The position numbers and the translations under genes were made by a program. The notes under the pieces are model-generated. The model saw only the letters and a list, made by a program, of their open reading frames with translations, searched no databases and was not told where the DNA came from. DNA of 64,000 bases, from contig CAWBZI010000002.1 in NCBI GenBank assembly GCA_963793265.1, forward strand, positions 736,001 to 800,000, given 5' to 3'. This document shows, piece after piece, positions 377 through 61,704 of this stretch (positions within the stretch are counted from its first letter, which is position 1; every line of letters begins with the position of its first letter). The stretch is from an uncultured cyanobacterium (GTDB lineage Bacteria; Cyanobacteriota; Cyanobacteriia; Phormidesmidales; Phormidesmidaceae).

Positions 377-2308
377 ATGAAAATTGGGGCACGTCTGACT
401 GAGGATAACGGCGAGAAAGTCTGTAAGTTTACCGTGTGGGCACCGCTACTTGAAGAGGTTGCCGTTGAGATTGTCCGTACGCCGTCTGAAGCAAAATCAG
501 GATCTGATCTACTGCCGATGATCAAGGGCGATCGCGGCTACTGGCAGGCGATCGCACCCAATATCCCCGCTGGCACCCAATACCGCTACCAGCTAGAAGG
601 CGCTGACTCATGGCCCGATCCTGCCGCCGACTACCAGCCCGAAGGCGTTCACGGCCCCTCTGAAGTGATTGACCACAGCGCGTTTGAGTGGAGCGATCAC
701 ACCTGGCAAGGCATCCCCCTCAACGACTACATCATCTACGAACTGCACGTTGGCACCTTTACAGACGAAGGTACCTTTGAAAGTGCGATCGCCCGTCTGC
801 CCTACTTAGTTGAGCTTGGCATTACCGCCGTGGAGATCATGCCGGTTGCTCAGTTTCCAGGCGATCGCAACTGGGGCTATGACGGCGTATTTCCCTTCGC
901 CGTACAAAACTCATACGGTGGCCCTAATGGACTCAAGCAGCTTGTAAACGCCTGCCACGCGCATGGTTTAGCCGTTGTGCTAGACGTGGTGTACAACCAC
1001 TTCGGCCCCGAAGGCAACTACACCGGCAAGTACGGCCCCTATACCACTGACCGCTACCGCACGCCCTGGGGCAACGCCATCAACTTTGACGATGCCGAAT
1101 CTGGTGGCGTCCGCAACTACTTCATTCAAAACGCGCTGAACTGGCTAGACGACTATCACGTAGACGCCCTTAGACTCGACGCGGTACACGCTATTTACGA
1201 CTTCGGAGCCGAACATTTCTTACAGGCACTCTCTGAAGCCGTTGATGAGCTTGAAAGCACCCAGTCTCGTCCGCTGTACCTGATTGCTGAGAGCGATCTT
1301 AACGATCCCCGGCTCATTCGCAGCACCAGTAAAGGCGGCTACCAGCTAGACGCGCAATGGAGCGATGACTTTCACCATGCCCTCCACTCGCGACTAACGG
1401 ACGAAAAGATCGGCTACTACAGCGACTTCACAAATTTAGAAACGCTCGCTTTCGCTATTCGCAACCGCTTTGTTTACGCCGGACAATACTCACCCTTTCG
1501 TCGCCGTGACCACGGTGGCCCGGCCTTAGATTTGCCCTCAGAAAGGTTCGTAGTGTGCAGCCAAAACCACGATCAGGTAGGCAACCGGATGATGGGCGAT
1601 CGCTTCTCTACCCTGATTTCCTTTGAAGCCCAAAAAATTGCCGCTGCCACCACGATTCTTTCTCCCTACCTGCCGCTTCTCTTTATGGGCGAAGAATATG
1701 GTGAAAACGCACCGTTCCTATACTTTGTAGACCACGGCGAGCCTGATCTTATCGCCGCCGTTCGTGCGGGCAGAAAAGAAGAATTTAAAGACTTTCATGG
1801 CGAAGGCACACCGCCTGATCCAGCGGGCCTAGAAACCCTTGAGAAGTCCACGCTTAACTGGCCTACAGACAAGGACGCGGCCCAAGGTGCAACCTATGCC
1901 TCAGATTGGAAGCCTGAAAAAGGCAATACCCCTGCGCAGCAAATGAAGCTCTTGAAGTTTTACAAGCAGCTAATTAAGGTGCGTAAAGCGTGCAAAATCA
2001 TGAACACCTCTACCGCTTCAGACATCATTACCCAACACACCAACGACCTCCTTTACTACCGCCGCACCCGCCCTGATCCTGGCACGGGCGATTTGCTATT
2101 CATTATCAACTTTGGCGAGCAACCTCACAAAATTGGACTACCCTTAGGCAAACAAACTTGGAGACAAAAAATCAGCTCTTTGAGCACTGAATGGTCTACC
2201 GAAGCGGATAAAACAACTGAACTGCTCCCTGAAGTGCTCACTGCCGAAAGCACCCCTAATACATCTGTGCCCGCGATGAGTTTTGCACTCTACCAGTCAG
2301 ATATCTGA
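377..2308 (+). CDS. treZ: Malto-oligosyltrehalose trehalohydrolase (GH13)
   Basis: FTVWAP, YELHVGTFT, NWGYDGV, LRLDAVHAI, QNHDQVGNR motifs; adjacent to treY; ATG at 377 preferred over TTG at 344. Confidence 0.95.
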   Translation: MKIGARLTEDNGEKVCKFTVWAPLLEEVAVEIVRTPSEAKSGSDLLPMIKGDRGYWQAIAPNIPAGTQYRYQLEGADSWPDPAADYQPEGVHGPSEVIDHSAFEWSDHTWQGIPLNDYIIYELHVGTFTDEGTFESAIARLPYLVELGITAVEIMPVAQFPGDRNWGYDGVFPFAVQNSYGGPNGLKQLVNACHAHGLAVVLDVVYNHFGPEGNYTGKYGPYTTDRYRTPWGNAINFDDAESGGVRNYFIQNALNWLDDYHVDALRLDAVHAIYDFGAEHFLQALSEAVDELESTQSRPLYLIAESDLNDPRLIRSTSKGGYQLDAQWSDDFHHALHSRLTDEKIGYYSDFTNLETLAFAIRNRFVYAGQYSPFRRRDHGGPALDLPSERFVVCSQNHDQVGNRMMGDRFSTLISFEAQKIAAATTILSPYLPLLFMGEEYGENAPFLYFVDHGEPDLIAAVRAGRKEEFKDFHGEGTPPDPAGLETLEKSTLNWPTDKDAAQGATYASDWKPEKGNTPAQQMKLLKFYKQLIKVRKACKIMNTSTASDIITQHTNDLLYYRRTRPDPGTGDLLFIINFGEQPHKIGLPLGKQTWRQKISSLSTEWSTEADKTTELLPEVLTAESTPNTSVPAMSFALYQSDI

Positions 2309-2366
2309 TGCACAACTGTCCTGTCGCCTAGCCCATAACTAGATCCTCTTCTAAAGCGCCTTTCCT

Positions 2367-5180: not shown

Positions 5181-5297
5181 AATTGAGCGTATCTCAGAAG
5201 GCAGCCAGCGAATTCTTAATTCGTGCTTTAGCAGGATACGTCTACGTACGTGAATACGCTAGGATCAAACGAATGCATTCAAAAGGACGATTGTTTC

Positions 5298-5747
5298 ATG
5301 GTAGATAAGGTCATAAAAACGGATGAAGAGTGGAAGGAGCAGCTTACGCCTGAAGCCTATCAGGTAACTCGCAAAGCGGGCACCGAACGTGCCTTCACCA
5401 GCCCACTCAATAACAATAAGAGTGAGGGCATCTACCGTTGCGTTTGCTGCAACTCTGAGCTGTTTGACTCTAGCACCAAGTTTGACTCAGGCACTGGCTG
5501 GCCTAGCTTCTATGCGCCAAGCGAGCCCGAAAACGTTCAGAATAAAAAAGACTTCAGCCACTTCATGATCCGCACAGAAACCGTTTGTGCGGTATGTGAT
5601 GCCCATCTGGGTCATGTCTTTAGCGATGGCCCTAAGCCTACTGGCAAGCGCTACTGCATGAACGGCGCGGCGCTTACCTTTGAAAAGGCCGATATCGACG
5701 GTGACGGACAAATCAGCGAAGGCAAAACAGCTCAAACGGCCAGCTAG
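5298..5747 (+). CDS. msrB: Peptide-methionine (R)-S-oxide reductase
   Basis: [36 protein letters not shown] at 5298. Confidence 0.95.
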
Positions 5748-5750
5748 TCA

Positions 5751-11446: not shown

Positions 11447-13066
11447 GTGGTCAGTCAATCCCTATCACCCGGTTCGCTCACACAACCTCTGCCGCCAAAT
11501 AGCGTGGTGTGGGGTAAACAGCGCGAAGGCGAAGCGCTTAAGCAGATGCAAAAAGAGGCTTGGGCAGGTGCGTTTCGCTCACAGCTACAAGAATTTGACT
11601 ACGAAATTACAGAGATTGAAGGTACCTTACCCGAAGGGCTAAAAGGATCTACGCTCTTTCGTAACGGCCCTGGACGATTCGAGCGTGGCGATCAGCGCGT
11701 GGCCCACTATCTAGATGGCGACGGCTATCTTTCAAAAATTGGCTTTTCGCCCACGGGCAAAGTCTACTTTTCTTCTAAGTTTGTAAAAACCGCAGAGCAT
11801 CAACAAGAAGAAGCCGATAACGCTTTTGGCTTTCGCACAACCTTTGGTAATGCTAAGCCTGGTGGGCCTTTAGCTGCCCTGCTAGATCTCTATCTTAAAA
11901 ATCCTGCCAATACTCATGTTGTGCCCTGGGGCGGCAAGCTTCTGGCACTGTATGAGGCAGGTGCGCCCTATCGGATTGACCCACACTCTCTAGAGACTTT
12001 AGGACTAGAAAATTTAGAAGGCGGCTTGAACCCTCATCCATTGCCAGGCTCCAAGCTGAATGCACTTAAGCGTCGGAGCGCAGGTCAGCAGGCCATGACC
12101 GCGCATCCTCATGTTGATCCGGAGCGTGATCGCCTCGTCACCTGGACATGGGGCATGAACATGAACATTGGTAAACCTAACGAGCTAGTCATTGAGCTAA
12201 TTGAGTACGACGCTCACTGGCAAGCCGTCAGCCGCATGACCTACAAAATGCCAGGAGCTGCCGTTAATCCGCATGACTTTGCGCTCACCCAAAACTACTA
12301 CGTCTTCTTTGAAAACGCGCTGAGCTTCGATATTACACCTTTCCTATTAGGGAAAAAGTCTCCTGCCGACTGTCTCAATCTGTTACCCAAGCCCACCAAA
12401 GTTCACCTGATTCCAAGACCTGATGGTGCCATGGCAAGCACTGAGCCTACTGTATTAGAAACTGAGCAGTGGTTTTCAATTCATCAAGCTTGCGCGAGCG
12501 AGCGGGAAGATGGCAGTGTTGAAGTGTATAGCTCAGGTTGGCCAAAGAGTGAAGGTGGATTTTTGACAAGCTGGGGTGGGTATGCGCCTGACTTTGATGC
12601 GATCGCCCCCACATACCTCTGGCAAACCATCATCAATCCCAACCAACAAAGTGTCATTCACCGCATCGCCCCCGGCACAGAAGGCTACTGCATCGCCCAT
12701 CCACACACAAATCCAAACAAAGAGACACTACCCAGCCGCTACCTTTACATGCCGTACTGCAACAACATCGGAGAATCCTCCCCGCCCATCGGCTACCTGA
12801 AATTAGATACACAGACTCAAGAACAACAGCTTTGGACAGGCCATCCCCTTTGCTTTGCCGAAGAACCCGTCTTCGTACCTAATTCCCAAGGAAACAAAGA
12901 AGACGATGGATGGCTACTCGGGCTAATGTACGACCACCTTAGAGAGCGTTCTTCTCTCGCTATCTTCGATACCACAAACATCAGCGCAGGCCCCATCTGT
13001 CGCCTATGGTTCACCCATCACCTAGCCCACGGCCTACACGGATCATGGTCGAGCCAGTACACATAG
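11447..13066 (+). CDS. Carotenoid oxygenase (RPE65/CCD family)
   Basis: FRNGPG, DGDG, four Fe-ligand His (AHPH, HDF, IHQ, HGLHG), EEPVFVP, EDDGWLL. Confidence 0.92.
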   Translation: MVSQSLSPGSLTQPLPPNSVVWGKQREGEALKQMQKEAWAGAFRSQLQEFDYEITEIEGTLPEGLKGSTLFRNGPGRFERGDQRVAHYLDGDGYLSKIGFSPTGKVYFSSKFVKTAEHQQEEADNAFGFRTTFGNAKPGGPLAALLDLYLKNPANTHVVPWGGKLLALYEAGAPYRIDPHSLETLGLENLEGGLNPHPLPGSKLNALKRRSAGQQAMTAHPHVDPERDRLVTWTWGMNMNIGKPNELVIELIEYDAHWQAVSRMTYKMPGAAVNPHDFALTQNYYVFFENALSFDITPFLLGKKSPADCLNLLPKPTKVHLIPRPDGAMASTEPTVLETEQWFSIHQACASEREDGSVEVYSSGWPKSEGGFLTSWGGYAPDFDAIAPTYLWQTIINPNQQSVIHRIAPGTEGYCIAHPHTNPNKETLPSRYLYMPYCNNIGESSPPIGYLKLDTQTQEQQLWTGHPLCFAEEPVFVPNSQGNKEDDGWLLGLMYDHLRERSSLAIFDTTNISAGPICRLWFTHHLAHGLHGSWSSQYT

Positions 13067-13097
13067 GGAAAAGCAGAACTCTTCAGACGAACCTTTC

Positions 13098-13178
13098 GGG
13101 GGGTCTGGGGGAGGGTTCGGCCCCCAGGCAGCATTTAAAGAAATAAGCAGAGGAGGGGTGCAGGGGAGGAAATCCCCT
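13098..13178 (+). repeat. Two tandem G-rich REP-like hairpins
   Basis: GGGGGGTCTGGGGG-agggttcgg-CCCCCAG (13098-13127) and GGGGTGCAGGGG-aggaaat-CCCCT (13155-13178) between convergent genes. Confidence 0.6.
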
Positions 13179-13204
13179 AATCTTGACGCCTTGCGTTTTG
13201 CTTC

Positions 13205-13597
13205 TTACGACAGCTTCTCAACCAAATCAAACACTCTTCTCTCAATCTCATCCCGAATCTCAGGAAAAATCTCAGGCCGCTCCGCCGGATCATCCAACTC
13301 CCAATCATCAAAATAATCCCTCTTCACCCAAGCCTCCGGCAGACTAACCCCACACCCACACAACGAAACCACCGCATCAAAATCCTCAGCCCTAAAATCC
13401 GCCAACGCATCAGACGACTGAGGCGTAATATCAACCCCCACATCAGCCATCACCGCGATCGCCTCCGCCCTCACCGAACTCGCCTCCAGCCCCGAACTTA
13501 CCACCTCAATCTTCCCCGCCCCAATCCTTCGTGCAAACCCCTCCGCCATCTGCGATCGCGAAGAATTCTTCCTACACACAAACATCACCCTTTTCAC
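13205..13597 (-). CDS. arsC: Arsenate reductase, LMW-PTP fold, glutaredoxin-coupled cyanobacterial type
   Basis: MFVCRKNSSRSQMAEG (CX5R), SLCGCG, DWELDDP; GTG start at 13597. Confidence 0.88.
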   Translation of the reverse strand: MKRVMFVCRKNSSRSQMAEGFARRIGAGKIEVVSSGLEASSVRAEAIAVMADVGVDITPQSSDALADFRAEDFDAVVSLCGCGVSLPEAWVKRDYFDDWELDDPAERPEIFPEIRDEIERRVFDLVEKLS

Positions 13598-20475: not shown

Positions 20476-21762
20476 ATGCCTGCTGCGCTCGAACCCATAG
20501 ATATTGTGATTTTGTCCAATGGCCCCGGTGAAGTGGCCACCTGGGTAAAGCCGGTAGCGCGATCGCTCCAAACGCAAGCTGCCGCCCAAAAACACAATAT
20601 CCGCCTCTCCGTCATCCTCTCCCCCTGCCCCCACGCCTCTGGACAAGAAGCCACCACCGTCGCTAACTATCCTGAAATCGATCGCGTCCAAAGCGCCAAT
20701 CACTTTTTCAAATTCCTCCTTACGGGTAAGACCGCTGACGGCTGGGACTGGCACCCAAAAGGCATCGTTGTCTTTCTCGGTGGTGACCAGCTCTACACCG
20801 TCCTGGTTGCTAAGCGCCTCGGCTATCGTACTATCACCTACGCAGAATGGGACGCTCGCTGGCCCCAATGGATTGATAGCTTCGGGGCTATGCAGCCTGA
20901 ACTCATCGAAAAAGTCCCGCAGAAGCATCAGCACAAGTTCACTGTCGTTGGCGACTTGATGGCTGACGTACAGGCTACTGCCGATCGCGCGGAAATTACA
21001 GACCGGCTAGGATGCTCGCCAGAGGATGAAATTATTGGATTTTTGCCAGGGTCGAAACCGACCAAGCTGAGTATGGGGGTGCCTTTGCTGCTTGCGATCG
21101 CCCAAACTCTCCACACCCAACGCCCCCAGTCCCAATACGTCATCGGCGTCGCCCCCAACGTCACCCCCGCCGAAATCATGCGCTACACCGACCCAGCGCA
21201 CAATCCGGCCATGGCAATCATCCCCTGCCCCCCAGCCGAACTCATCGAACCCACCTCAGCGCTGCCCTACATTCAAGTTAAAAACGGCCCCAAGATCTTC
21301 CTCTGGCAGTCCTTCCCCGCCCTCGATCTCTTCTCTCAATGCGCCCTCTGCTTCACTACCATCGGCGCAAACACCGCCCAGCTCGGCGCACTTGCTGTCC
21401 CTATGCTCGTACTCATTCCCACCCAGCAAATAGACGGCCTCAGGCTCTTAGATGGCCCGCCAGGTCTACTCGTCAGGCTACCTGGCGTAGATGTCCTCGC
21501 CCGAAAGTTCATCAGTCCGCTGGTTATTAAGGCCGTGCAAAAATCAGGCAGGCTGTTTGCCTGGCCGAACATTTGGGCCAGAAAAGAAGTAGTGCCGGAG
21601 CTACTAGGGCCAATTACGGCTGAAGACGTGAGTGCGATCGCTCAAAACTACCTCACCCACCCCGAAAAACTTGACCACATGCGCCATACCCTTCAAAGCT
21701 TGCGCGGCCCAGCAGGAGCAGCCGACAAAATGGCCAGCCTTATTTTAGAGACGGTATCCTAA
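20476..21762 (+). CDS. Lipid-A-disaccharide synthase-related glycosyltransferase
   Basis: LSNGPGE, FLGGDQ, VGDLMAD, FLPGSK, GANTAQL, FAWPNIWA..EVVPEL. Confidence 0.8.
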   Translation: MPAALEPIDIVILSNGPGEVATWVKPVARSLQTQAAAQKHNIRLSVILSPCPHASGQEATTVANYPEIDRVQSANHFFKFLLTGKTADGWDWHPKGIVVFLGGDQLYTVLVAKRLGYRTITYAEWDARWPQWIDSFGAMQPELIEKVPQKHQHKFTVVGDLMADVQATADRAEITDRLGCSPEDEIIGFLPGSKPTKLSMGVPLLLAIAQTLHTQRPQSQYVIGVAPNVTPAEIMRYTDPAHNPAMAIIPCPPAELIEPTSALPYIQVKNGPKIFLWQSFPALDLFSQCALCFTTIGANTAQLGALAVPMLVLIPTQQIDGLRLLDGPPGLLVRLPGVDVLARKFISPLVIKAVQKSGRLFAWPNIWARKEVVPELLGPITAEDVSAIAQNYLTHPEKLDHMRHTLQSLRGPAGAADKMASLILETVS

Positions 21763-38161: not shown

Positions 38162-38301
38162 CTATTCTCTCTTCTGCTCTGGTGAATTAAGGTGTAGCAA
38201 TAGTTTTATTGATAGCTATAGCGATAGCAGCGATGCCTCCTAACGCGCACCCATACATTCACGGATAAACAAGCTAGAGGGCATCTACTGTGTGGTTATA
38301 T

Positions 38302-39408
38302 CTAGCGACGAGCTGCTTTAGCCGCAGCCGCAGGGGCACCGCCAATCAGGCGTTGAAGCTCCTCGGGGCGAGAAGTTTTCGCCATTGCCGACTCAAAACT
38401 AATCACTTTGTTCTTATAAAGCTCACCTAGCGCCATCTCTAGCGTTTGCATCGAAAGTCTGCCGCCAGTCTGAATCGCACCGTAGATTTGAGCGGTTTTA
38501 CCCTCGCGAATCATGTTAGAAATACCAGGGGTAACAACCATGATCTCTTGCGCCATCACTCGGCCAAACTCGCCGGGCTTAGGATTTGCTTTACTCACTA
38601 AGCACTGACTCAAAACAGCCACCAAGGAGTTAGAAAGCTGTACTCTAATCTGCTGGTGTTGTGCGGGTGGAAACACATCTACAATTCTGTCTACGGTCTG
38701 TGCTGCCGAGCTAGTGTGCAGCGTACCGAAAACTAAGTGACCCGTTTCTGCTGCCGAAATTGCCAGAGAGATTGTCTCCAAGTCACGCATCTCACCCACC
38801 AGAATCACATCTGGATCTTCACGCAAAGCACCTTTCAATGCATTAGAGAAGCTTTTCGTATCTTCTCCGACCTGCCTTTGGTGAATCAAACTCTTAATGG
38901 GTTCGTACACAAACTCAATCGGATCTTCAACAGTTAGAATATGCTCCGCCCGAGTCAAGTTAATGTTGTTGATCATCGAAGCTAGGGTTGTTGTTTTACC
39001 CGAGCCAGTTGGGCCGGTCACCAATACTAAGCCGCGTGGCTTCTCTGACAGCTCAGTCACAATCGGCGGCAGGCATAGCACGTCCATGCTAGGGATTTTA
39101 GAACTTAGTGCACGTAAGCAGGCAGCATAAGTACCTCTGTCCTTATATACGTTCACCCTGAATCGAGCGAGCCCCTTTACGCCATATGAGCAGTCCAACT
39201 CCCACGTTTGCTCAAGAATCTTACGCTGAGAGTTGTTCAACATGCTGAAAATCAGCCGTTGACACTGGTCGGCGGTCATGACTGGGTGGTCAGTCGCGGT
39301 TAAGTGGCCGCTGATGCGGATGTATGGAGGGAGGCCGGTTGAGAGGTGAAGGTCAGAGCCGCCGCGCTCTACGACTTCTTCCATCAGGTCTTCAATCATT
39401 AATTCCAT
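38302..39408 (-). CDS. pilT: Twitching motility retraction ATPase
   Basis: GSDLHL, GPTGSGKTTT, EDPIE, LREDPD, AAETGHLV. Confidence 0.96.
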   Translation of the reverse strand: MELMIEDLMEEVVERGGSDLHLSTGLPPYIRISGHLTATDHPVMTADQCQRLIFSMLNNSQRKILEQTWELDCSYGVKGLARFRVNVYKDRGTYAACLRALSSKIPSMDVLCLPPIVTELSEKPRGLVLVTGPTGSGKTTTLASMINNINLTRAEHILTVEDPIEFVYEPIKSLIHQRQVGEDTKSFSNALKGALREDPDVILVGEMRDLETISLAISAAETGHLVFGTLHTSSAAQTVDRIVDVFPPAQHQQIRVQLSNSLVAVLSQCLVSKANPKPGEFGRVMAQEIMVVTPGISNMIREGKTAQIYGAIQTGGRLSMQTLEMALGELYKNKVISFESAMAKTSRPEELQRLIGGAPAAAAKAARR

Positions 39409-39481
39409 GAGATTTTTCCTCGGTTGAATGGTGTAGTTATCAGGATTTGAATTTTGAAATATGAGTGGGGAGAGGCGATCG

Positions 39482-41491
39482 CTAATCCTTGTATCGAGGT
39501 GTCAAACAATAAGGACAATCGATCCACTCGTGATGTAGCGCCGCATTACAGGTCGTACAGGATAGAACGCTCTTACGCTTAGCCTTTAGCTCAGCTTCTA
39601 GCCCCTTATCTGTAAAGGTTACGCGCTCTACTTCTTCAAGCGTGGTGTGCCCGGCCTTCACCAAGTTCAAGCTATAGGCCAGCAGCGTATGCATACCGTC
39701 TTCTACAGCCGCCTCCTTAATTTGCTCAGTCGGCGCATTGTCAGAAATCATCTGCTGCACCCTTTCGGTCACACGCATCACTTCATACACGCCAACTCGG
39801 CCTTTATACCCGCCGCCCTGACACTTTCCACAAAGCTCGCCCGACTCTCTGAGTTCAGCGATTTGCTCATTAGGCACCTTGTTAGCCTTATAAAAGGTCA
39901 TCTCAAAGTCACCTGAAGCCGTCATACCAAACCGCGCCAGTTCTTCGTGAGTCGGCGTATAGCCCACCCGACACTCACCGCACACCCGGCGCACCAGTCT
40001 TTGCGCCAGCACACCAATCAAAGAACTCGATACCTGGAAAGGCTCAACGCCCATCTCACCGAGTCTCGAAACCGCGCCTGCCGCGTCGTTAGTGTGCAGC
40101 GTCGTCAGTACGAGGTGCCCAGTTAAGGCAGCTTCAATTGCAGTTTTCGCCGTCTCAGGGTCGCGCGTCTCACCCACTAGGATCACGTCTGGATCTTGTC
40201 TTAAGAAAGCTCTCAAAATAGAGGCAAAGTTCATGCCCTTCTCTCGAATCACCTGCACCTGAGTAATCCCTGGCAGCGCGTACTCAATCGGGTCTTCTGC
40301 CGTGCTGATATTCACACCAGGGTCGTTACGCTCAGAAAGCACCGAATACAGCGTCGTTGTTTTACCCGAGCCTGTCGGCCCCGTTACCAAAATCAGGCCA
40401 AACGGCTTCTTAGCCATGTCCTGCACAATTTTCAGCGTCTCATCGTCGGTAATCAAAGCCCCTAAGCCCAACTGAGTCGCAGAGTTGTCCAAAATTCGCA
40501 GTACAACTTTTTCGCCATATCGACTCGGCAGCGTACTCACGCGAAAGTCTACCTTACGCTCCTGAAACACCCGGCGAATTCTGCCGTCTTGAGGCATCCG
40601 ACGCTCAGCAATATCCAGCTCAGAGATGATCTTAAAGCGAGCGGTTACCGCCGGAATAATCTTCTTCGGCAGCGCTGGAAAAGCCTCCTTCAAAACGCCG
40701 TCCTTACGAAAGCGAATTCGCAAAAACTCTTCTTGTGGCTCAACGTGGATGTCAGATACTTCTTCCTGTAGCGCCTTCACCAAGATCTTATTGACTAAGG
40801 CAATAACCGGAGCCGCGCCTGCATCTTGGAGTGCCGCACCCAAATCCGCATCTTCTTCAACGACATCTTCTAATCCATTGCCATCCAGATCGAGATCGTC
40901 TAGGTCGGTAGCTACATCGACCGCTTTAGCAGAATCGCGCTGCTTTTCTTTGGCCACCTGCTCGTCTAAATACTTCGCCATCAGGCGCTGATAATCTTCA
41001 ACGGTGATCACCATGCGCCGCAGCTTTATTTTCAGCGGTCGAAGAATGCGGTTCAAGTCATCTTGCGCCTCTAGGTTCTCTGGATCGACCATCGCCACCA
41101 GCACAGATTCAGTGCCGTCCTCTGTCGTCTTAGATAAAGGGACGAGGCGGTGGCGGCGACAAATATCTACTGATATCAAGCTGCCAATTAAGCCTGTTAC
41201 CTGCGAATCCGATATACTCTCAACTTCAGGATCAAGGGATTCGACGCCATAGAGAATTTTTAGCTCAAAGAGCTGCTGCTTTTTGTACTGACGCAAAAGC
41301 TCGGGTGAGAGCTGCTGCCCGGTCATAGACTCTAAAACGTCGGTTAAAGAACGACCTGTTTTGCGACTTTCGACCAGTGCTTGCTGCATTTGGCTGCCGT
41401 CTACAAAGCCTGCTTCGACGAGCTTGTTGCTAAAAGGCGAAAAGCTCTTTTGTAGGACAAGGGCCTTCCGCGTAGATGAAGAGTTTGTCAT
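39482..41491 (-). CDS. pilB: Type IV pilus assembly ATPase
   Basis: SDIHVEP, ERRMPQDG, GPTGSGKTTT, LRQDPD; C-terminal CxxC...CPYC extension. Confidence 0.95.
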   Translation of the reverse strand: MTNSSSTRKALVLQKSFSPFSNKLVEAGFVDGSQMQQALVESRKTGRSLTDVLESMTGQQLSPELLRQYKKQQLFELKILYGVESLDPEVESISDSQVTGLIGSLISVDICRRHRLVPLSKTTEDGTESVLVAMVDPENLEAQDDLNRILRPLKIKLRRMVITVEDYQRLMAKYLDEQVAKEKQRDSAKAVDVATDLDDLDLDGNGLEDVVEEDADLGAALQDAGAAPVIALVNKILVKALQEEVSDIHVEPQEEFLRIRFRKDGVLKEAFPALPKKIIPAVTARFKIISELDIAERRMPQDGRIRRVFQERKVDFRVSTLPSRYGEKVVLRILDNSATQLGLGALITDDETLKIVQDMAKKPFGLILVTGPTGSGKTTTLYSVLSERNDPGVNISTAEDPIEYALPGITQVQVIREKGMNFASILRAFLRQDPDVILVGETRDPETAKTAIEAALTGHLVLTTLHTNDAAGAVSRLGEMGVEPFQVSSSLIGVLAQRLVRRVCGECRVGYTPTHEELARFGMTASGDFEMTFYKANKVPNEQIAELRESGELCGKCQGGGYKGRVGVYEVMRVTERVQQMISDNAPTEQIKEAAVEDGMHTLLAYSLNLVKAGHTTLEEVERVTFTDKGLEAELKAKRKSVLSCTTCNAALHHEWIDCPYCLTPRYKD

Positions 41492-46295: not shown

Positions 46296-47470
46296 CTTCA
46301 GATGCTGTGACTTCAGATGCTGTAGCTTCGGATTTTGAAGATTTATCGGTGGTTGCTGGGGCTTGGGTAGGAACGGTAGTGGCTATTCAGGCTAACTACT
46401 ATTCGGTGCAGCTAGATGAGGTGCCTGGGCTAGATAAGGTGAGGAAGCAGGCTGATTTGCCGGTTTTTTTGCTGTGTATTCGGCGAGGATTGCTCAAAAA
46501 GCTGGGCCAGCAGATTATGGTGGGCGATCGCGTGGCTGTAGAAGAACCCGACTGGCAGGGAATGAGGGGTGCGATCGCGACCGTCTACCCCCGTAAAACC
46601 TCCCTAGACCGCCCGCCCATCGCCAACGTAGACCAAATCCTTCTCGTATTCGCCCTGGCCGAACCTCAGCTAGATCCTCATCAGCTCAGCCGATTTCTAA
46701 TCAAGGCAGAATCTACCGGCATGGGCATCACGCTATGCCTCAATAAGCGCGATCTCATCGACGATAAAGCCGTCAGCTATTGGCAAAACAGAATTCAAGA
46801 ATGGGGCTACCAGGCTCTACTCGTCAGCATCCGCGACGATGACCAGCTCGAAACCGACCTCATCGCGGAGCTGCAAAGTAAAATCACAGTCGTCGCAGGC
46901 CCCTCTGGCGTAGGCAAATCCAGTCTTACTAACCGACTCATTCCCGATCAAGATCTTCGGGTTAATGCCGTTTCAGGAAAACTAGGCCGAGGCCGTCACA
47001 CCACTCGCCACGTAGAGCTATTTGAGCTTCCCAACGGCGGCTTTTTAGCAGACACCCCCGGCTTCAATCACCCTGACATCAATTGCTCTCCCGAAGAACT
47101 CAGTCAGTACTTCCCAGAAATTCGGCAGCGGCAGGCAGTAGCAAACTGTCAGTTCAACAACTGCCTGCATAGAGACGAGCCTGGCTGTATCGTACGCGGC
47201 AGTTGGGAAAGGTACGAACACTACCTCACGGTGCTAACAGAGGTGATTCAGCAGCAGCAAAACCTTTTGCATCAGCCGGATGCAGAGGCTACCGACAAAG
47301 TGAAGATGGTAGAAGACGGCAAGGTGCTGCGTGAGCCTAGATTGGAAGCTAAAAAATACCGCCGCACCTCACGAAAAACGCGCAATCAAGCTTTTCAAGA
47401 GCTGTGCATAGATCTTTCAGCCGTTGAGGATCTTGAAGACCTCGAAGATTTAGAGGATATTAGCCGGTAG
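46292..47470 (+). CDS. rsgA: Small ribosomal subunit biogenesis GTPase RsgA
   Basis: VGDRV, NKRD, GPSGVGKSS, GRHTT, DTPG, CQFNNCLH..EPGC. Confidence 0.94.
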
Positions 47471-55178: not shown

Positions 55179-58100
55179 TTAGGCAGAAACGCTCGACAAA
55201 GCCGGTTTTTTCAAAGCGCCCTGCATTTGCCCAAGCCAGTCGATCAAGCTTTCAATTTGCTTGTCGGGGCTAAGTACGCCCAGTCCGCGAACGGTAACCT
55301 TGCCGGGTGCGTAGACGAAACGCGATCGCAAATGACTCGGCAGCTTTTCTTGCAGCAAATTCCAGGCAGGCTTCTCCATCGGCGTTTCCATAATCACATT
55401 CTGCTTGCCCTCTAGCTTAATTCGTGAAAAACCAAGCGGCTTAGCCATCTGCTTAATCTCAAGCACTTTCACAAGCTGACCCACCGCAGGCGGCAAAGTG
55501 CCGTAGCGGTCGTTCAAATCCGCCACAATTTCCATCAGTTCCCGCCGCGTACCCGCAGAGACTAAATCGCGGTAGATACTCATTTTCTGATCGACATCAG
55601 GAATGTAGTCGGCAGGAATAAAGGCCGTGACCTTAAGATCCACCTGAGTTTCATCGACCTGTGGAATTTCTTGACCGCGAATCTCTGCAATCGATTCTTC
55701 GAGCATGTCCATGTACAGATCGAAGCCGATCACTTCCATTTGCCCAGACTGCTGCGCACCGAGTAAGTTACCAATGCCGCGAATTTCCATATCTCGCATC
55801 GCAAGCTGATAGCCAGAGCCCAACTGAGTAAATTCTTGAATGGCACGAAGCCGCTTACGAGCCTTGTCTGAAAGCTTGTTCTGAGCGGGGAAAAGTAGCC
55901 AGGCGTGAGCTTGAATACCCGAACGACCCACGCGACCTCTAAGTTGATAGAGCTGAGAAAGCCCGAACTTATGAGCGTCTTCAATGATGATGGTGTTCAC
56001 TCTAGGAATATCGAGTCCTGACTCGATGATGGTAGTGCAAACCATCAGATCGGCCTCGCCACTGCCGAAGGTGAGCATGGTGGCTTCTAGTTCGCCTTCA
56101 GGCATTTGACCATGGGCGATCGCTAACCGAATCCCCGGCACCGCCTCCCGAATCCGCCCAGCCACTTCCTCAATGCCGTCCACCCGAGGCACCACATAGA
56201 ATATCTGCCCCCCGCGATCTAGCTCCTGACGAATCGCCGCTCTCACCTTCTCAGGATCATAGGGCGATAGGTGCGTCTTAATCGGACGGCGAGACGGCGG
56301 TGGTGTGGTAATCAGGCTCATTTCTCGTACACCTGAAAGCGCCATATAAAGCGTTCTAGGAATCGGCGTTGCACTCAGCGTCAGAACATCTACCTGAGCC
56401 TTCATCGCCTTAATTTTCTCCTTTTGGTTCACTCCAAACCGCTGCTCTTCATCCACCACCAGCAGGCCCAAATCCTTAAACTTGACGACCTTGCCGAGTA
56501 GCTGATGAGTACCAACAACCACGTCGAGTTCACCAGAAAGCAAACGCTTGAGAATGTCTTTGCGTTCAGAGGCGCTACGGAAGCGGTTGAGTAGCCCAAT
56601 TTGGATGGGATAAGGTGCGAAGCGTTCTTTGAGCGTGTGGTAGTGCTGCTGCGTCAAAATAGTCGTGGGCGCAAGTAAAGCAACCTGCTTGCCTGCGGTG
56701 ATTGCTTTGAAGATGGCACGCAGAGCAACTTCTGTTTTGCCAAAACCCACATCGCCACAGACTAAGCGATCCATCGGGCGATCGCTCTCCATATCTCGTT
56801 TCACATCCTGCGTCGCCTTGAGCTGATCTGGCGTGGGATCGTAAGGAAATGAATCCTCTAGCTCCTGCTGCCAGGGCATATCTTGGGGATAGGTAAAGCC
56901 TTCCATTTGCGATCGCTTAGCATACAGCTTCAGCAAATCGACCGCCACCTTCTGAATGGCCTTACGCGCCTTACCCTTGGTTTTCTCCCAAGTTTTGCCC
57001 GTCATCTTATTGAGCTGAGGCCGCTGATCTACCGACGTGCGATAGCGCGACAGCGAAGCCATCTGATCAACCGCCACCCGCAGCAAACCATCCGCGTACT
57101 GAATGACTAAGATATTCGCGCGTTTTGTTATCAACGGTGATGCTATCAAGCCGTAGAAACTGACCGATCCCGTGGTTACGATGAACTACATAGTCCTTCG
57201 GATTGAGCTTGTTGGGATCAACCTGTTTAGAGGCTGCGCGACGGCGTTTGCGAACGTAGCTAGGCGTCGCTAGCGTGTGCTGCCCAAAGAATTCGCGGTC
57301 AGTAACGACCACAATGCGAAAGGTCGGCAGGATGAATCCTTCAAGCTCAGCGAGTCCTGAATACTTGACGGCAATAGGAATCCGCTGATTTTGCAGCTTA
57401 TCAATCGCGGGATAGTCTTTGGGAGTTCGGAATAAACTGAGCCGGGCAGTCGTGCTCTTGCAGCAGGGCAACTGAGCGGGAGGGTTGAGCAGAAATGAGC
57501 CAGGGGGTGAACTTGCGATCGCGCTCTGCCCTCAAAATATCAGCCAGCTTCCCAAACTGATGCGGGATCGTCGGAATAGGCCGACTCGCCAAATTCAGCC
57601 CCACCCCTTCCTCTGCAATTTCTGAAAGTCCAACCTGCTGAAACAGGCTCAGCTCCTCAAGCACTTCAGCATAAGGCTTATGAATCCTAGGCAATCCCTG
57701 AGCAGGCAGCTTAACGTCAGGATGTTTTTCCAAAGCCTCCTGAGCCTCTGCCCAACGCTCCTCCATCGTCTCGATCCAGCGATCGGCATGAGCCTGGCAC
57801 TGCGCAGGCTCATCAATCGCAATCATTGTATCTTCAGGCAGATAGTCCAGCAGCGAGGCAGGCGACTCGAACGCCAATCCCGTGAACCGCCGGACGCCTT
57901 CTACCTGCTGACTGGTCGCGAAACTTTCTTGATCTTCTGGCACGAGAAGGTCTTCAAGCAGACCCTTTTTATCAAGTGCCTCAGAAATGATGGGGCTATA
58001 GTCGGTGGTTGTGAGTAAAAGGGTTTCGATTTTGTCGAGCGATCGCTGACTAGCCGGATCAAACTCCCTCAGCCGTTCCAGCTCATCCCCAAACAGTTCC

Positions 58101-58723
58101 AGCCGCACCGGCAGCTCAGCCGCCACAGGAAACACATCAATAATGTCTCCTCTCTGGCTCCACTGCCCCTCAGTCTCCACCGTCGCCACTTTCGCATAGC
58201 CCAGCTTAGCCAAACTAATCGAAAGATCCTTCAGGTTCAGCTCCATCCCCAGCGTAATTTCCAGGCAGTAAGGCCGAAACACCTCAACCGGCGGTAGATG
58301 CGGCTGCAACGCCCTTTCAGTAGCCACAATCGCCATCGACCCCAAATGCTTCGAGCCCGGCGGCATCTCACCGCTATACGCCTTGCCATTAATCAGATCT
58401 GAGAGCACCTGAAGCTGTCCCCAGGTCAACTCCGACTCCTGATCGAACCCGTCATAAGGAGAAGACTCCGAGGTGGGATAAAACGAAACCGTCTCCCAGC
58501 CCATCGCCTCTAGCTGCGCGGCCCACCGACCTGCTTCTTCTAGCGTGGCCGCGATCGCTAACATCGGTCGCTGCTGCGCCTGAGCCAAAGCAGACACCAC
58601 CAACCCTTTCGGCAGTCTAGGCACACCGTTAAGCTGTAGCTGCTGCTGCTTTCCGAGCTTATTTACCAGCTCTTGGCCAAGAGCCGTTCGGGCTAGCGCG
58701 CGCGTAATCGAAGAAAAGGCCAT
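55179..58723 (-). pseudogene. mfd: Transcription-repair coupling factor, split in three by two +1 frameshifts (real or sequence error)
   Basis: ORFs 57401-58723, 57067-57471 and 55179-57149 join into one Mfd ([49 protein letters not shown] domain). Confidence 0.9.
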
Positions 58724-58805
58724 GGGTCAATTTAAGTGCGATCGCCACCTAAAACAAACAGAGTTTCATTCTAGAAGGCATCGCCTCAAAAATGCATCAT
58801 CCCCG

Positions 58806-58830
58806 GTAGGGGCGTAAGGTCTTACGCCCT
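58806..58830 (+). repeat. GTAG-type REP-like palindrome
   Basis: GTAG-GGGCGTAAG-GT-CTTACGCCC-T, flanked by CCGG on both sides, in the pgi-mfd intergenic region. Confidence 0.65.
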
Positions 58831-58867
58831 CCGGCAGCAATTCACCAGATCTTCGACCCGCGAAAAA

Positions 58868-60454
58868 CTAAGCCGCCGAAACCTTCAGCGCCTCAGGCTT
58901 ACTAGGATCACCCTCTATCTTCACACCCCGATTATTGGCATCCAAATGCCGCACAATCTTATAGATATTCTCAATTCTATCCGTCGCCGCAATCTTCTCT
59001 GCAATCTCACTCAAAGACAAAGGCTTATCCGCTCCCTTCAGCGCGTCCTTCACCTGATTTTGCAGATCCAGTACAGCCGCCGCCGCCTTCTTACCCGCTT
59101 CCACGCCCGGCTGATGATAGGCATTGATATTCACCAAATGAGCATACAAACTCACTGCCCGTTCATAGAGCGCAATCAAAGCTCCCACCATACGAGCGCT
59201 CACATCCGGCACCGTAATGGTAATCGAATCGCGATGATTGTCATACAAAGCGCTGCGCGTACCCTGAAGCAATCCAGACAGATAGTCACCTGAAGTCACA
59301 CCAGGCTCCACCTCCACCGAAACACCCTCACGGTCTTGCAACACCTCAATCAATGTGGCAAAAAAGTTAGGCACCCCTTCGCGAAGCTGCTGAACGTAAG
59401 CATGTTGGTCAGTTGAACCTTTATTGCCATATACCGCAATCCCCTGGTAAACCGTATTGCCATCTAAGTCCTTTTCCTTACCCAAAGACTCCATCACAAG
59501 CTGTTGCAGATAGCGACTAAAGAGGAAAAGGCTGTCCTTGTAAGGCAGCACAACCATATCTTTTTCGCCCTTGCCATTCCCTGAGAAATACCAGGCCATT
59601 GCCAAAAGAGCCGCAGGATTTTCACGAACGTTTGCCACGCGGGTCGCATCGTCCATTTCTTTTGCGCCGTCTAGCATCGCTTGAATATCAATACCTTGCA
59701 AAGCCGCCGGTAAAAGCCCTACTGCCGACAGTTCAGAAGTTCGTCCACCAATCCAGTCGTACATCGGGAACGTAGTTAGCCAACCTTCTGACGTTGCAAC
59801 CTTGTCTAATTTGCTGCCTTCTCCGGTAACTGCAACCGCTTGTTTAGCAAAGTCGAGCCCGGCTTTTTCAAAAGCAGCCTTGCTCTCTACCATGCCGTTT
59901 CTAGTTTCGGGTGTGCCACCAGATTTAGAAACGATCAAGACGAGGGTGGTTTTGAGGCGATCGCCAATCTCATCGAAAACGTGGTCGATCCCTACAGGAT
60001 CAGTATTGTCAATAAAGTGAATATTGACCGCTGGATTAGCTTCCACCAATGCCTGAGAAACAAACTGCGGGCCTAAAGCAGATCCACCGATTCCGACAGA
60101 GAGCACGTCTGTAAAGCGATCGCCTCCTGGCGGCTTAATCTCACCGTTCAAAACCTTCGTGGCAAACTCTTTTACAGAACTCAGCGTTTCAGTAACTGCT
60201 TTCTTAAGTTCTTCGGTTGGGGCCAAATCCGCATTTCGCAGCCAGTAATGGCCGACCATGCGATTTTCATCGGGGTTAGCGATCGCACCCCCTTCCAATT
60301 CCACCATCGCCTCAAACGCCTCATCAAACCTTGGCGTGAGCTGTTTTACAAACGCATCGTCAAAACTCATCCGACTAATATCGATATAGATACCGAGCCC
60401 TTTGTGATAATAAAGCCAGTCTTGATAGCGTTTCCAGAGTGCAGCCGCGTCCAT
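58868..60454 (-). CDS. pgi: Glucose-6-phosphate isomerase
   Basis: [57 protein letters not shown] at 60454. Confidence 0.96.
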
Positions 60455-60669
60455 AATGATTCTCTTTTGTGTGCTGGAATTGAAATGATATAAGCCATCG
60501 CTAATACATATAGAGCCTGATAGACATTTTTCGCAAAAGGTCGGCAGGATTTTAATATTCGTAGCTTTTGCCACCCTTTAGTAGCCGTGATTACAAAGCT
60601 CTACCCTAAGATAGAAGTAGGGCCAAGCCTCAAACTTAAAACAGCGTGAATTATTTAGTAGTGCTCTCT

Positions 60670-61704
60670 ATGGATCTCACTTCTCTAAACCTGGCAACTC
60701 TAGAAAGCTGGCTAGACAACGCCGCTTTCGCCGTACTGTTCGCAACGATGCTGGCATATTGGAGCGGACTGGCCTTCGAGAAAGCCAAGATTTTGCCGAT
60801 CATCGGCGGCGCAGGTATGGCCGTTGGCAATCTGTGTTTGGCAGCGCTCTTGACTGCTAGATGGATAGAAGGCGGCTACTTTCCCCTAAGTAATCTCTAC
60901 GAATCGCTATTTTTCATCGCCTGGGGCATCACTGCCATGCACTTTGTCGCTGAGCGTATGAGTGGCAGTCGCTGGGTCGGTGCGGTAACCTCACCTGTTG
61001 CTATGGGCATCTCAGCTTTTGCAGCGCTCACCCTACCAGATGCAATGCAGGTTTCAGAGCCTTTAGTACCCGCACTAAAGTCTAACTGGCTAATGATGCA
61101 CGTGAGCGTGATGCTGTTGAGCTATTCGGCGCTGATGGTAGGGGCATTGATTGCGATCGCCTTCCTGATTGTCACCCGAGGCCAAAATGTAGAACTCAAA
61201 GGCAGCTCTGTCGGCACCGGAGGCTTCAGGGATCGCAAGTACCAGCTCAAAAAAGCAGACGATACCCCAGCCCCCGAACCGCTACCAACACTCTCAATGT
61301 CTAGGGCAATGTCCGGTGGCGGTACCGCTGTTCTAGAAGCACCTGCAAAAACAACCGCAGCCGTTGCCCTCTCCCCTCAGCGCCTAACCCTAGCCGACAC
61401 GCTAGACAACATCAGCTATCGCATCATTGGCTTAGGCTTTCCCCTCCTCACTATCGGCATCATTGCCGGTGCCGTATGGGCCAACGAAGCTTGGGGATCG
61501 TACTGGAGCTGGGATCCTAAAGAAACCTGGGCGTTGATCACTTGGCTAGTATTTGCAGCCTACCTTCATGCTCGCATCACCAAAGGATGGCAGGGCAGAA
61601 GGCCCGCAATTTTAGCCGCTTCAGGCTTCGTCGTTGTCTGGATTTGCTATCTGGGCGTCAACCTTTTAGGTAAAGGTCTACACAGCTACGGCTGGTTCTT
61701 TTAA
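60670..61704 (+). CDS. ccsA: Cytochrome c biogenesis protein (system II, CcsA/CcsB)
   Basis: [42 protein letters not shown]. Confidence 0.95.

What the first reader, a model, noticed from the sequence alone, without database searches (positions are those of the whole stretch)
528..61160. GC skew flips at HIP1 sites: G-rich 5', C-rich 3', regardless of gene strand
Seen, by hand count of 60 nt each side on the + strand (upstream vs downstream): site 12599 (+ gene) G22/C8 vs G5/C24; 21094 (+ gene) G19/C12 vs G8/C30; 46571 (+ gene) G25/C10 vs G9/C27; 58039 (- gene) G20/C7 vs G10/C25; 60279 (- gene) G17/C16 vs G8/C24. These five were chosen because they stood out by eye. The same switch is visible at 6424, 8513, 20559, 25616, 34179, 43540, 48685, 53741 and 56116. 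It occurs mid-gene, and both strands show the same polarity because HIP1 is palindromic. Some sites (3834, 10114) show little effect. Established: HIP1 overlaps methyltransferase targets (GATC, CGATCG) and its function is unresolved. Inference: repeated nicking or cutting at HIP1 followed by 5'->3' resection would leave the complementary strand single-stranded on its 5' side of the site. Deamination there (C->T, A->G) gives exactly this polarity. It would be the mutational footprint of a HIP1-anchored repair or recombination system.
Basis: partly seen in the sequence, partly recalled or inferred. Interest (0 to 1): 0.85.

Follow-up and report, generated by a model that had tools for sequence, protein, structure and literature searches.

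The report
Polar strand bias anchored at HIP1
In this cyanobacterium the silent DNA letters are G-rich just before and C-rich just after most copies of the abundant palindrome HIP1; the bias seems to build up after a copy appears, fades over about 100 bases, and runs backwards around the substitute palindrome of one distant relative, which points to a one-way DNA repair or recombination process that starts at this long-unexplained word.

Summary
Observation confirmed and genome-wide. 62 of 69 window sites and 5,946 of 6,884 genome sites have the polarity (random positions 47%). At four-fold codon positions the skew is +0.68 just 5' and -0.67 just 3' of HIP1, decays over about 100-120 nt, is equal on both gene strands and in both replichore backgrounds, and is present between genes. 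GATC or CGATCG away from HIP1, 141 control palindromes and most one-off variants show none; no hairpin. New here: (1) newly gained sites are weakly skewed, lost sites keep it; (2) a second HIP1 40-100 nt behind the first adds almost nothing; (3) synonymous divergence near HIP1 is not raised (0.96, CI 0.87-1.05) and lost C goes to G, so deamination alone fails; (4) one Thermostichales genome has the mirror-image skew at its substitute GGGATCCC (159 of 186). Strength varies by lineage. Best reading: mismatches near HIP1 are settled by rewriting the strand 3' of the nearest site (0.4); no enzyme found; added gap mutagenesis, conversion bias and selection stay open. Not found in ten library searches. 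This scan noted the basic skew before in five other windows, two in this genome.

The parts
528..61160 (.). 69 copies of HIP1 (GCGATCGC), 1.08 per kb; each is the centre of a mirror-image compositional gradient (G/T-rich 5', C/A-rich 3', about 100-120 nt decay on each side)
12539..12666 (+). example site 12599 in a + strand carotenoid-cleavage-dioxygenase-like gene: G22/C8 before, G5/C24 after
21034..21161 (+). example site 21094 in a + strand gene: G19/C12 before, G8/C30 after
46511..46638 (+). example site 46571 in rsgA (+), with a second HIP1 47 nt upstream at 46524: G25/C10 before, G9/C27 after
57979..58106 (-). example site 58039 in a - strand gene (N-terminal part of mfd): same + strand polarity, G20/C7 before, G10/C25 after
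60219..60346 (-). example site 60279 in pgi (-): G17/C16 before, G8/C24 after

Best explanation
SHOWN: each HIP1 octamer biases which base ends up fixed at near-neutral positions within about 100-200 nt; on any strand the part 5' of the site gains G (and T at two-fold sites), the part 3' of it gains C and A; mainly the nearest site on each side counts; the bias builds up after a site is gained; total substitution rate is about unchanged. INFERRED: mismatches near a HIP1 that escape ordinary repair are settled from the nearest HIP1. A factor bound there opens one strand and the strand running 3' from the site is excised and recopied over a patch of about 100 nt, whether it was the new or the old strand. 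An error made in that strand is erased (rate x (1-f)); an error made in the partner strand is copied and fixed (rate x (1+f)), with f about 0.25-0.3 within 60 nt and higher next to the site. If the common polymerase errors put G opposite T or G and T opposite G (recalled, not from a call), the strand 5' of the site drifts to G/T and the strand 3' of it to C/A at no net cost in rate. It works like MutH-directed repair from the nearest GATC but with a preferred direction and without full strand discrimination. Lineages with balanced two-way excision would show no skew, and one with 3'->5' excision the mirror image (G063). The nicking or binding factor is unidentified.
For: Needs the whole octamer: GATC (n = 9,489) and CGATCG (n = 530) more than 300 nt from HIP1 give +0.002 and -0.006; of 12 one-off variants only GTGATCGC, the expected decay product of the methylated C, keeps near-full skew. 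Lag after gain: sites in 1 of 3 Phormidesmis-like genomes 2.5+-1.8 (n = 22) against 6.5+-1.9 in 2 of 3 (n = 24) and 6.5+-0.9 in 3 of 3 (n = 83); Laspinema 1 of 4 -2.8+-3.5 (n = 12), 3 of 4 11.1+-4.0 (n = 21), 4 of 4 7.2+-2.0 (n = 62); G000-only sites 9.0 in G000 but 2.1 at the same place in relatives (n = 40). Nearest-site rule: with a second HIP1 40-100 nt behind the first, logit 0.97+-0.06 against 0.92+-0.02 at 20-50 nt and 0.64+-0.05 against 0.63+-0.01 at 50-100 nt, where adding would give roughly +0.3 to +0.5; opposing left and right sites do add. E. coli repair uses the nearest GATC, either side, efficiency falling with distance (PMC1616947 passages). Rate unchanged: 0.256 (n = 3,163) against 0.262 (n = 13,448), gene-matched ratio 0.96 (CI 0.87-1.05); changes toward C up (T>C 1.49, G>C 1.51) and toward G down (A>G 0.69, C>G 0.70). 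The symmetric four-parameter model has the best likelihood of the five constrained model types at <=30 and <=60 nt. Independent of gene strand and local replichore skew. Sign can reverse. MutL found in 27 of 30 genomes incl. G000 and G063.
Against: The likelihood test does not separate this model from a four-rate add-only model or from a fixation-bias model: within about 5 units at <=60 nt, and at <=100 nt the symmetric model is 2-3 units worse than both. Its best fit pushes one of four f values to the bound (0.95), and sites were treated as independent. The per-base ratios assume reversibility and are tied to composition; polarised counts with outgroups were too few to confirm them. The gain classes are small and '1 of 3' includes double losses. 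Shielding is incomplete: +0.07 to +0.13 at 100-300 nt and +0.35+-0.12 for pairs under 40 nt apart. No enzyme: Vsr 0 of 26, NucS not in G000 or G063, mutH reported absent from all 76 cyanobacteria studied (PMC5101192 passages); RecJ in 26 of 26 and xseA in 22 of 26 do not track the skew. Several HIP1-rich genomes show no long-range skew. The one paper read on reciprocal mispairs (PMC7498342 passages) shows a context where template C is the error-prone side, so the mispair ranking that I rely on is not universal.
Confidence: 0.4

Rival explanations
1. Strand-polar conversion bias in recombination heteroduplex. HIP1 starts or ends strand exchange (natural transformation, or exchange between copies of a polyploid chromosome). 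The invading strand has a fixed polarity relative to the site and mismatch repair treats reciprocal mismatches unequally, so C and A alleles are driven on the strand 3' of the site, like GC-biased gene conversion but strand-specific.
For: A three-parameter fixation-bias model fits as well as any (best at <=100 nt) and predicts the unchanged rate; G+C is slightly raised near HIP1. Homologous or methylated HIP1 raises transformation up to about 130-fold in Synechococcus PCC 7002 (10.1101/2024.09.10.611283, parts 1-3 of 4 read); HIP1 abundance co-evolves with pilus and competence genes (PMC13756078 discussion). Repair efficiency in transformation differs by mismatch type (PMC3375284 passages).
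Against: No sign that phylogenetic patterns break at HIP1 once a same-side control is used: matched difference -0.011 (CI -0.030 to 0.007, 63 sites), +0.009 (52 sites), -0.007 (14 sites). The same pneumococcal paper found no effect of mismatch repair on genome-wide transfer, and tracts of 2.3 kb mean, far longer than 100 nt. The Synechocystis PCC 6803 plasmid pSYSM shows no long-range skew (32 sites) although 6803 is reported to gain from HIP1 methylation.
Confidence: 0.2
2. Added mutagenesis in a single-stranded gap. Nicking or cutting at HIP1 and 5'->3' resection expose the strand 5' of the site; damage and error-prone fill-in add A->G, C->G, C->A and C->T on it, as at meiotic break hotspots.
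For: Sign and spectrum match human hotspots, where the forward strand left of the break gains C>N and A>N changes, with C>G and A>G prominent (PMC7615360 passages). A four-rate add-only model is within 2-5 log-likelihood units of the best model in all three distance classes. Two-fold sites show T>C on the 3' strand up about 1.5-fold.
Against: It predicts observed divergence up by 9-11%; measured 0.98 raw and 0.96 (CI 0.87-1.05) gene-matched, though requiring a shared HIP1 may select conserved stretches. The deamination-only form is 12-18 units worse than the best model; T does not rise on the 5' strand and G+C rises; the fitted A->G increase (about 2-fold) exceeds C->T (about 1.1-1.35-fold), the reverse of spontaneous deamination chemistry (recalled). 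No trinucleotide signature beyond single-base effects. Needs reversed resection in G063.
Confidence: 0.2
3. Weak selection on flank composition: a protein that loads at HIP1 and moves along one strand works better with G-rich DNA behind and C-rich DNA ahead, and silent sites are tuned accordingly.
For: Mathematically the same as the fixation-bias model, which fits well; rate unchanged; HIP1 itself is under selection (PMC5861425 passages); lag after gain is also expected.
Against: No mirror complementarity across the site, so no hairpin (observed at or below permuted values at all distances); no motif beyond single-base effects; amino-acid use is distorted in the same direction (T, P, Q, H 3'; V, G, W, M 5'), which looks like a load; strength ranges from strong to zero to reversed among lineages; decayed GTGATCGC sites keep the skew.
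Confidence: 0.15
4. Strict methyl-directed repair (Elhai's GmeC model with a 5'->3' limit): hemimethylated HIP1 only improves repair of the new strand 3' of the site.
For: Predicts the sign in HIP1 genomes and the nearest-site rule; proposed in PMC4390886 section 3.4; G000 has several C5 methyltransferases.
Against: The reduce-only model is 12-16 log-likelihood units worse than the best model and predicts a divergence ratio of 0.81-0.86, below the measured interval. G063 has a strong skew with no C5 methyltransferase found (incomplete genome). The rCCGGy genome G066, one of Elhai's GmeC types, has no long-range skew (507 sites).
Confidence: 0.05

Closest known systems
HIP1 and alternative HIP sequences of cyanobacteria; Elhai's hypothetical GmeC-directed mismatch repair (PMC4390886)
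   Same: Same octamer and density (1.2 per kb); the idea that a nick at the site directs excision of one strand and can fix rather than erase a change.
   Different: That model explains how HIP1 is created; in the parts read it does not report or predict a flanking gradient, assumes a reach of about 1,000 nt and needs m5C. Here the reach is about 100-120 nt and polar, a GmeC-type rCCGGy genome lacks it, and a GGGATCCC genome without a detected C5 methylase has it reversed.
Dam/MutH methyl-directed mismatch repair of E. coli (PMC1616947)
   Same: Use of the nearest site on either side of a mismatch; efficiency falling with distance; exonucleases of either polarity.
   Different: GATC alone has no effect here; MutH is reported absent from cyanobacteria; E. 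coli repair is two-way and strand-true, so it is not expected to leave a mirror-image skew.
Strand-asymmetric mutation around meiotic double-strand-break hotspots (Hinch et al. 2023, PMC7615360)
   Same: Rotationally symmetric footprint around a short motif; C>G, A>G and C>T on the strand 5' of the site.
   Different: There the rate is raised several-fold over 1-2 kb; here the reach is about 100 nt, the total rate is unchanged, and the organism is a bacterium with about 7,000 sites.
Replication-associated GC skew (sign change at origin and terminus)
   Same: Same base pattern (G and T against C and A); each HIP1 looks like a tiny terminus, each GGGATCCC of G063 like a tiny origin.
   Different: Scale of 100 nt rather than megabases; both sides shift equally whatever the local replichore skew.
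Chi sites / DNA uptake sequences
   Same: Abundant short motif tied to recombination or transformation (HIP1 raises transformation in PCC 7002).
   Different: Chi is non-palindromic and strand-biased (PMC5861425 passage); the HIP1 effect on transformation survives addAB deletion; no breakpoint signal at HIP1; I found no report of a flanking skew for Chi or uptake sequences (one search returned nothing).

Membership tests
HIP1 | GCGATCGC strongly over-represented, about 1 per kb, in a cyanobacterium | tested here: met
   6,888 copies in 5.68 Mb; best MreB hits are Phormidesmis-like cyanobacteria
HIP1 | CGATCG-specific C5 and GATC-specific N6 methyltransferases present | tested here: inconclusive
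   8 C5-methylase matches in G000 and 2 N6-type candidates by motif; specificities not determined
Dam/MutH methyl-directed mismatch repair | GATC is the signal | tested here: not met
   9,489 GATC more than 300 nt from HIP1 show skew +0.002
Dam/MutH methyl-directed mismatch repair | MutH present | not tested
   not searched in G000; reported absent from all 76 cyanobacteria studied (PMC5101192 passages). MutL present
Dam/MutH methyl-directed mismatch repair | nearest site on each side governs | tested here: met
   second same-side HIP1 40-100 nt away adds about 0 within 100 nt; opposite sides add; incomplete at longer range
Very-short-patch repair (Vsr) | Vsr endonuclease present | tested here: not met
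   0 of 26 genomes incl. G000 (99% complete); control rings in E. coli and Caulobacter
NucS/EndoMS mismatch endonuclease repair | NucS present | tested here: not met
   none in G000 or G063; weak C-domain matches in 4 of 26
Single-strand deamination at resected breaks | raised substitution rate next to the site | tested here: not met
   ratio 0.96, CI 0.87-1.05; add-only models predict 1.08-1.11; modest margin
Single-strand deamination at resected breaks | C->T dominates and G+C falls | tested here: not met
   T not raised on the 5' strand, G+C OR 1.12; deamination-only model 12-18 lnL worse than the best
Single-strand deamination at resected breaks | nicks or single-stranded DNA at the site in vivo | not testable with these tools
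   only assembled contigs were served for this species
Replication-associated skew | sign or side depends on fork direction | tested here: not met
   right shift +0.88 to +0.95, left shift -0.82 to -1.01 logit in all four background classes of 143 40-kb windows
Transcription-associated skew or codon selection | depends on gene strand | tested here: not met
   mirror values 5' and 3' on the sense strand, same for + and - genes; present between genes
Chi-like recombination hotspot | recombination tracts begin or end at the motif | tested here: inconclusive
   apparent drop in concordance across HIP1 vanished with a same-side control; low power at 80-92% identity
Quasi-palindrome / hairpin correction | position-by-position complementarity across the site | tested here: not met
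   observed at or below permutation from 1 to 60 nt, n = 6,883

The most novel reading that the evidence does not exclude
Cyanobacteria own an undescribed site-specific strand-opening system that reads the whole HIP octamer (GCGATCGC, or GGGATCCC in Thermostichales) and uses it, independently of cytosine methylation, as the entry point for short one-way rewriting of DNA. It decides the fate of mismatches and heteroduplex by position rather than by strand age, and its direction is a lineage trait that can be 5'->3', balanced, or 3'->5'. The skew is its fossil record at thousands of sites and could be used to find the enzyme by phylogenetic profiling of sign and strength.
Probability: 0.35. Interest if true: 0.92.

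Novelty: new variant of a known kind. Interest (0 to 1): 0.8.

Why it matters
HIP1 has lacked an established function for about 30 years (PMC13756078 abstract). The footprint shows that something acts directionally from each site, gives its reach (about 100-120 nt), its specificity (whole octamer, not GATC or CGATCG), a nearest-site rule, and lineages with strong, zero and reversed effect. That turns the question into direct experiments (side-dependent mismatch resolution, mutation accumulation, nick mapping) and says which strains to use: the Synechocystis PCC 6803 plasmid sampled shows no long-range skew, whereas Phormidesmis-, Leptothoe-, Nodosilinea- and Laspinema-type genomes do. It also means that codon use and even amino-acid use in these genomes are set partly by distance to a DNA motif, which bears on codon-bias, selection and replication-origin analyses in cyanobacteria.

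Tried and rejected
Hairpin or cruciform selection: no mirror complementarity. Amino-acid or reading-frame artefact: four-fold, two-fold and intergenic sites all show it. Generic palindrome effect: 16 tetramers, 59 hexamers, 142 octamers tested; the smaller signals at GATC, CGATCG, TCGCGA and ATCGCGAT vanish away from HIP1. Okazaki-fragment or lagging-strand origin: both flanks shift in every replichore background. UV- or APOBEC-like context: trinucleotide ratios are close to products of single-base ratios. Recombination breakpoints at HIP1: a first test looked positive in 2 of 3 sets but failed the same-side control. Enzyme profiling: MutL 27 of 30, RecJ 26 of 26, Vsr 0 of 26, NucS 4 of 26 weak, xseA 22 of 26; none tracks the skew. 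xseA was not found in G063 but also not in G107, G125, G066, and G063 is an incomplete genome. Strain variation: four runs gave contigs only, 40 of 284 differences were listed, too few and selected, so no spectrum test. G000 has no close relative (best dnaK identity 82% of 45 genus genomes), so rates come from pairs of other genus members at 85-94%. Polarised counts with outgroups were too small to decide. More DNA of G063, G085, G116 and the methylase neighbourhoods of G000 was not obtained, so the reversed case rests on 133 kb and the methylase context is unexamined. Literature: searches.
Full report
OBSERVATION. The window (G000:C2:736001-800000) holds 69 GCGATCGC sites. In the whole genome 5,946 of 6,884 scorable sites are positive. 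Folding both flanks on to the strand that runs 3' from the site, GC skew is -0.35, -0.48, -0.42 at 1-3 nt, -0.29 at 6-10, -0.17 at 16-30, -0.11 at 41-60, -0.07 at 81-100 and -0.03 at 151-200 nt; AT skew is about +0.05. The organism is a cyanobacterium whose MreB is 92-98% identical to Phormidesmis-like genomes.

SPECIFICITY. Among 142 palindromic octamers with at least 30 copies HIP1 gives -0.145 at 11-60 nt; the other 141 average +0.004 (SD 0.019). GATC (9,489 copies) and CGATCG (530) more than 300 nt from HIP1 give +0.002 and -0.006. Of 12 one-off variants, scored more than 150 nt from any HIP1, GTGATCGC keeps +0.126/-0.107 (n = 554), GCAATCGC a part (+0.039/-0.063), the rest little or no mirror signal. 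GTGATCGC is what deamination of the methylated C gives and is a common loss product in relatives (9 of the 33 losses listed for two genus trios), so these are probably recently dead sites. There is no position-by-position complementarity across the site.

ANATOMY. With my own gene calls (4,904 genes, 86% coding), four-fold third positions on the sense strand have GC skew +0.68, +0.59, +0.47, +0.31, +0.17 at 1-3, 4-10, 11-20, 46-60, 101-150 nt 5' of HIP1 and -0.67, -0.60, -0.48, -0.33, -0.17 3' of it, alike for + and - genes; NNY codons end in C 0.31 against 0.60 and NNR codons in G 0.64 against 0.39 at 11-20 nt; intergenic DNA shows -0.44 to -0.07 over the first 60 nt; amino acids shift the same way. 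Best single decay length 100-120 nt, amplitude 1.3-1.6 logit; a small tail (0.1-0.2 logit) persists at 250-600 nt. Both flanks shift equally in 40-kb windows of any background skew. A second HIP1 40-100 nt behind the nearest adds 0.05+-0.06 at 20-50 nt and 0.01+-0.05 at 50-100 nt where addition would give roughly 0.3-0.5, while sites on opposite sides cancel as predicted; the shielding is incomplete beyond 100 nt and for pairs under 40 nt apart.

CAUSE OR CONSEQUENCE. In two trios of the genus, isolated sites present in 1 of 3 genomes score 2.5+-1.8 (n = 22), in 2 of 3 6.5+-1.9 (n = 24), in 3 of 3 6.5+-0.9 (n = 83). In four Laspinema genomes 1 of 4 gives -2.8+-3.5 (n = 12), 2 of 4 -6.2+-5.8 (n = 4), 3 of 4 11.1+-4.0 (n = 21), 4 of 4 7.2+-2.0 (n = 62). 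Sites shared by G000 and two distant genus members score 12.5 and 7.5 (n = 72); G000-only sites 9.0 in G000 and 2.1 in the relative (n = 40); relative-only sites 5.7 and 4.0 (n = 28). The skew follows the site with a lag; samples are small.

RATES. In ten pairs of relatives at 85-94% identity, four-fold divergence within 60 nt of a shared HIP1 is 0.256 (n = 3,163) against 0.262 beyond 300 nt (n = 13,448); gene-matched ratio 0.96, CI 0.87-1.05 (97 genes). On the 3' strand inferred rates toward C rise (T>C 1.49, G>C 1.51, A>C 1.14), toward G fall (A>G 0.69, C>G 0.70), G>A and C>T stay near 0.94; these assume reversibility. Laspinema also shows flat divergence. Likelihoods at <=60 / <=100 / <=30 nt: deamination only -35592.5 / -39816.5 / -32344.4; reduce-only -35589.9 / -39814.8 / -32340.0; add-only with four rates -35580.1 / -39799.9 / -32330.9 (predicts ratio 1.09-1.11); symmetric (1+f)/(1-f) with four f -35575.1 / -39802.0 / -32328.0 (0.94-0.96); fixation bias with three parameters -35579.7 / -39798.6 / -32332.4. 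So deamination alone and pure extra repair lose; the other three cannot be told apart. Within G000 genes, G+C at four-fold sites is higher near HIP1 (0.598 against 0.567, OR 1.12, 2,354 genes) and on the 5' strand C falls to 0.167, G rises to 0.43, T does not rise.

OTHER GENOMES. Of 107 loci examined (80 named mreB loci, 26 unnamed 20-kb pieces, one 50-kb plasmid piece), 66 had at least 10 scorable HIP1; 59 have the same sign, 32 reach z of 2, 22 reach 3, none is significantly opposite (kin and a shared region, so not independent). Strong: Phormidesmis-, Leptothoe-, Nodosilinea-, Laspinema/Oscillatoria-type loci and Leptolyngbya PCC 6406; the Laspinema profile is flatter, longer and G/C only. 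None beyond 3 nt: pSYSM of Synechocystis PCC 6803, two 2.7-Mb genomes with 2.5 HIP1 per kb (G029, G116), G125, G133, G149, and loci rich in bare CGATCG. G066 (Microcoleus vaginatus WJT46 MAG), which has GCCGGC/rCCGGy instead of HIP1, shows no long-range skew (238 and 507 sites). The Thermostichales MAG G063 (locus L106), which uses GGGATCCC, shows the mirror image: 3' side GC skew +0.165, AT skew -0.097, z = -14, 159 of 186 sites, all 7 pieces z -5.6 to -8.7, four-fold -0.33 5' and +0.42 3', with NNY and NNR mirrored too. Other GGGATCCC genomes are weakly reversed (G062 z -3.5 in 200 kb; G085 z -2.6) or flat (G027, G072, G073, G074, G075, G079, G082; 11-20 kb each). No C5 methylase was found in G063 or G062.

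MECHANISM. Shown: a motif-specific, polar, short-range, mostly nearest-site bias in what gets fixed, at unchanged total rate, whose sign is a lineage trait. Inferred: the simplest process with all these traits is resolution of mismatches from the nearest HIP by excising and recopying the strand 3' of it without full regard to strand age, which multiplies reciprocal rates by (1-f) and (1+f) (0.4). Rivals: polar conversion bias in recombination heteroduplex (0.2), added gap mutagenesis including C->G (0.2), weak selection (0.15), strict methyl-directed repair (0.05). The ranking of polymerase mispairs used to get the sign is recalled; PMC7498342 (passages) shows a counter-example context. No enzyme was identified.

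LITERATURE SEEN. PMC4390886: passages and section 3.4 part 1 of 2; it notes short palindromic extensions and the GmeC repair model; the word 'skew' does not occur in its main text. PMC5861425: passages, 'skew', 'asymmetr' and 'polarity' absent. PMC13756078: abstract, passages, discussion, nothing on flanks in these parts. bioRxiv 10.1101/2024.09.10.611283: parts 1-3 of 4. PMC7615360, PMC5101192, PMC3375284, PMC7498342, PMC1616947: passages only. Ten searches listed no paper whose title or abstract start describes a flanking skew at HIP1 or GGGATCCC. No supplement was read (Elhai's flank tables could bear on the first few bases), and subscription papers such as the 1990s HIP1 work are outside the library. 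This scan's notes hold five earlier reports of the basic skew, two from this genome; the word GGGATCCC was met in no note. I read them only after forming my reading (one search returned nothing).

VERDICT. Interest 0.8; filed as a new variant of a known kind (site-anchored strand-asymmetric repair or conversion footprint), with a 0.35 chance that it marks a system of a new kind.

Noticed in passing
L106, L136-L141 (G063): GGGATCCC replaces HIP1 and carries the mirror-image skew (C-rich 5', G/T-rich 3'); AGGATCCC keeps most of it (-9.1+-1.8, n = 17). xseA and C5 methylases were not found in this incomplete genome, while the five other Thermostichales-family genomes searched have xseA.
   Followed up: partly
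Laspinema and genus trios (L165-L341): Lineage-specific HIP1 sites differ from the nearest other genome by 2 or more bases in 28 of 48 cases, about 13.5 expected from arbitrary lineage-specific octamers: rapid two-step gain or one-step writing of sites; wobble positions and parallel losses may inflate it.
   Followed up: partly
window 25532-25589: Eight strain differences in 58 nt (runs X1 and X2) end 27 nt before the HIP1 at 25616, and an X4 contig piece with 25 differences in 265 nt spans 25590-25854: a possible imported tract beside a HIP1; single case.
   Followed up: no
window 55179-58723 (-): mfd (transcription-repair coupling factor) lies in two ORFs: 57401-58723 matches model positions 1-163, 55179-57149 positions 339-907. 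Split gene or frameshift in the assembly.
   Followed up: no
window 36941-41491 (-): pilB-pilT-pilC type IV pilus operon next to grpE-dnaK-dnaJ; relevant to competence but not tied to the skew.
   Followed up: no
G000:C5:248504-250147 and C6:55889-57079: One RecJ of G000, G043, G102 and G089 sits in a frame of 1,069-1,139 aa against 680-900 aa in the other genomes searched; the second RecJ of G000 is in a 488-aa frame, perhaps broken.
   Followed up: no
window 13090-13207: Contig depth piles up and many loose ends start here in all runs: a short multi-copy element.
   Followed up: no
window 1-64000: GGCGCC does not occur once in 64 kb, and several six-base palindromes are rare genome-wide: restriction-site avoidance.
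   Followed up: no
L052, L053, L348 (G110), L352 (G126), L358 (G104), L359 (G103): Cyanobacterial loci without HIP1 (L052, L053) or with no HIP1 among their frequent octamers; G103 has CAGGCCTG (8 in 20 kb) with a G-rich first 3 nt on the 3' side and a non-significant reversed trend further out.
   Followed up: partly
L342 (pSYSM), L360, L351: A strong G-5'/C-3' bias in the first 1-3 nt (GGCGATCGCC extension) occurs without the long-range gradient, so the two components are separable.
   Followed up: partly
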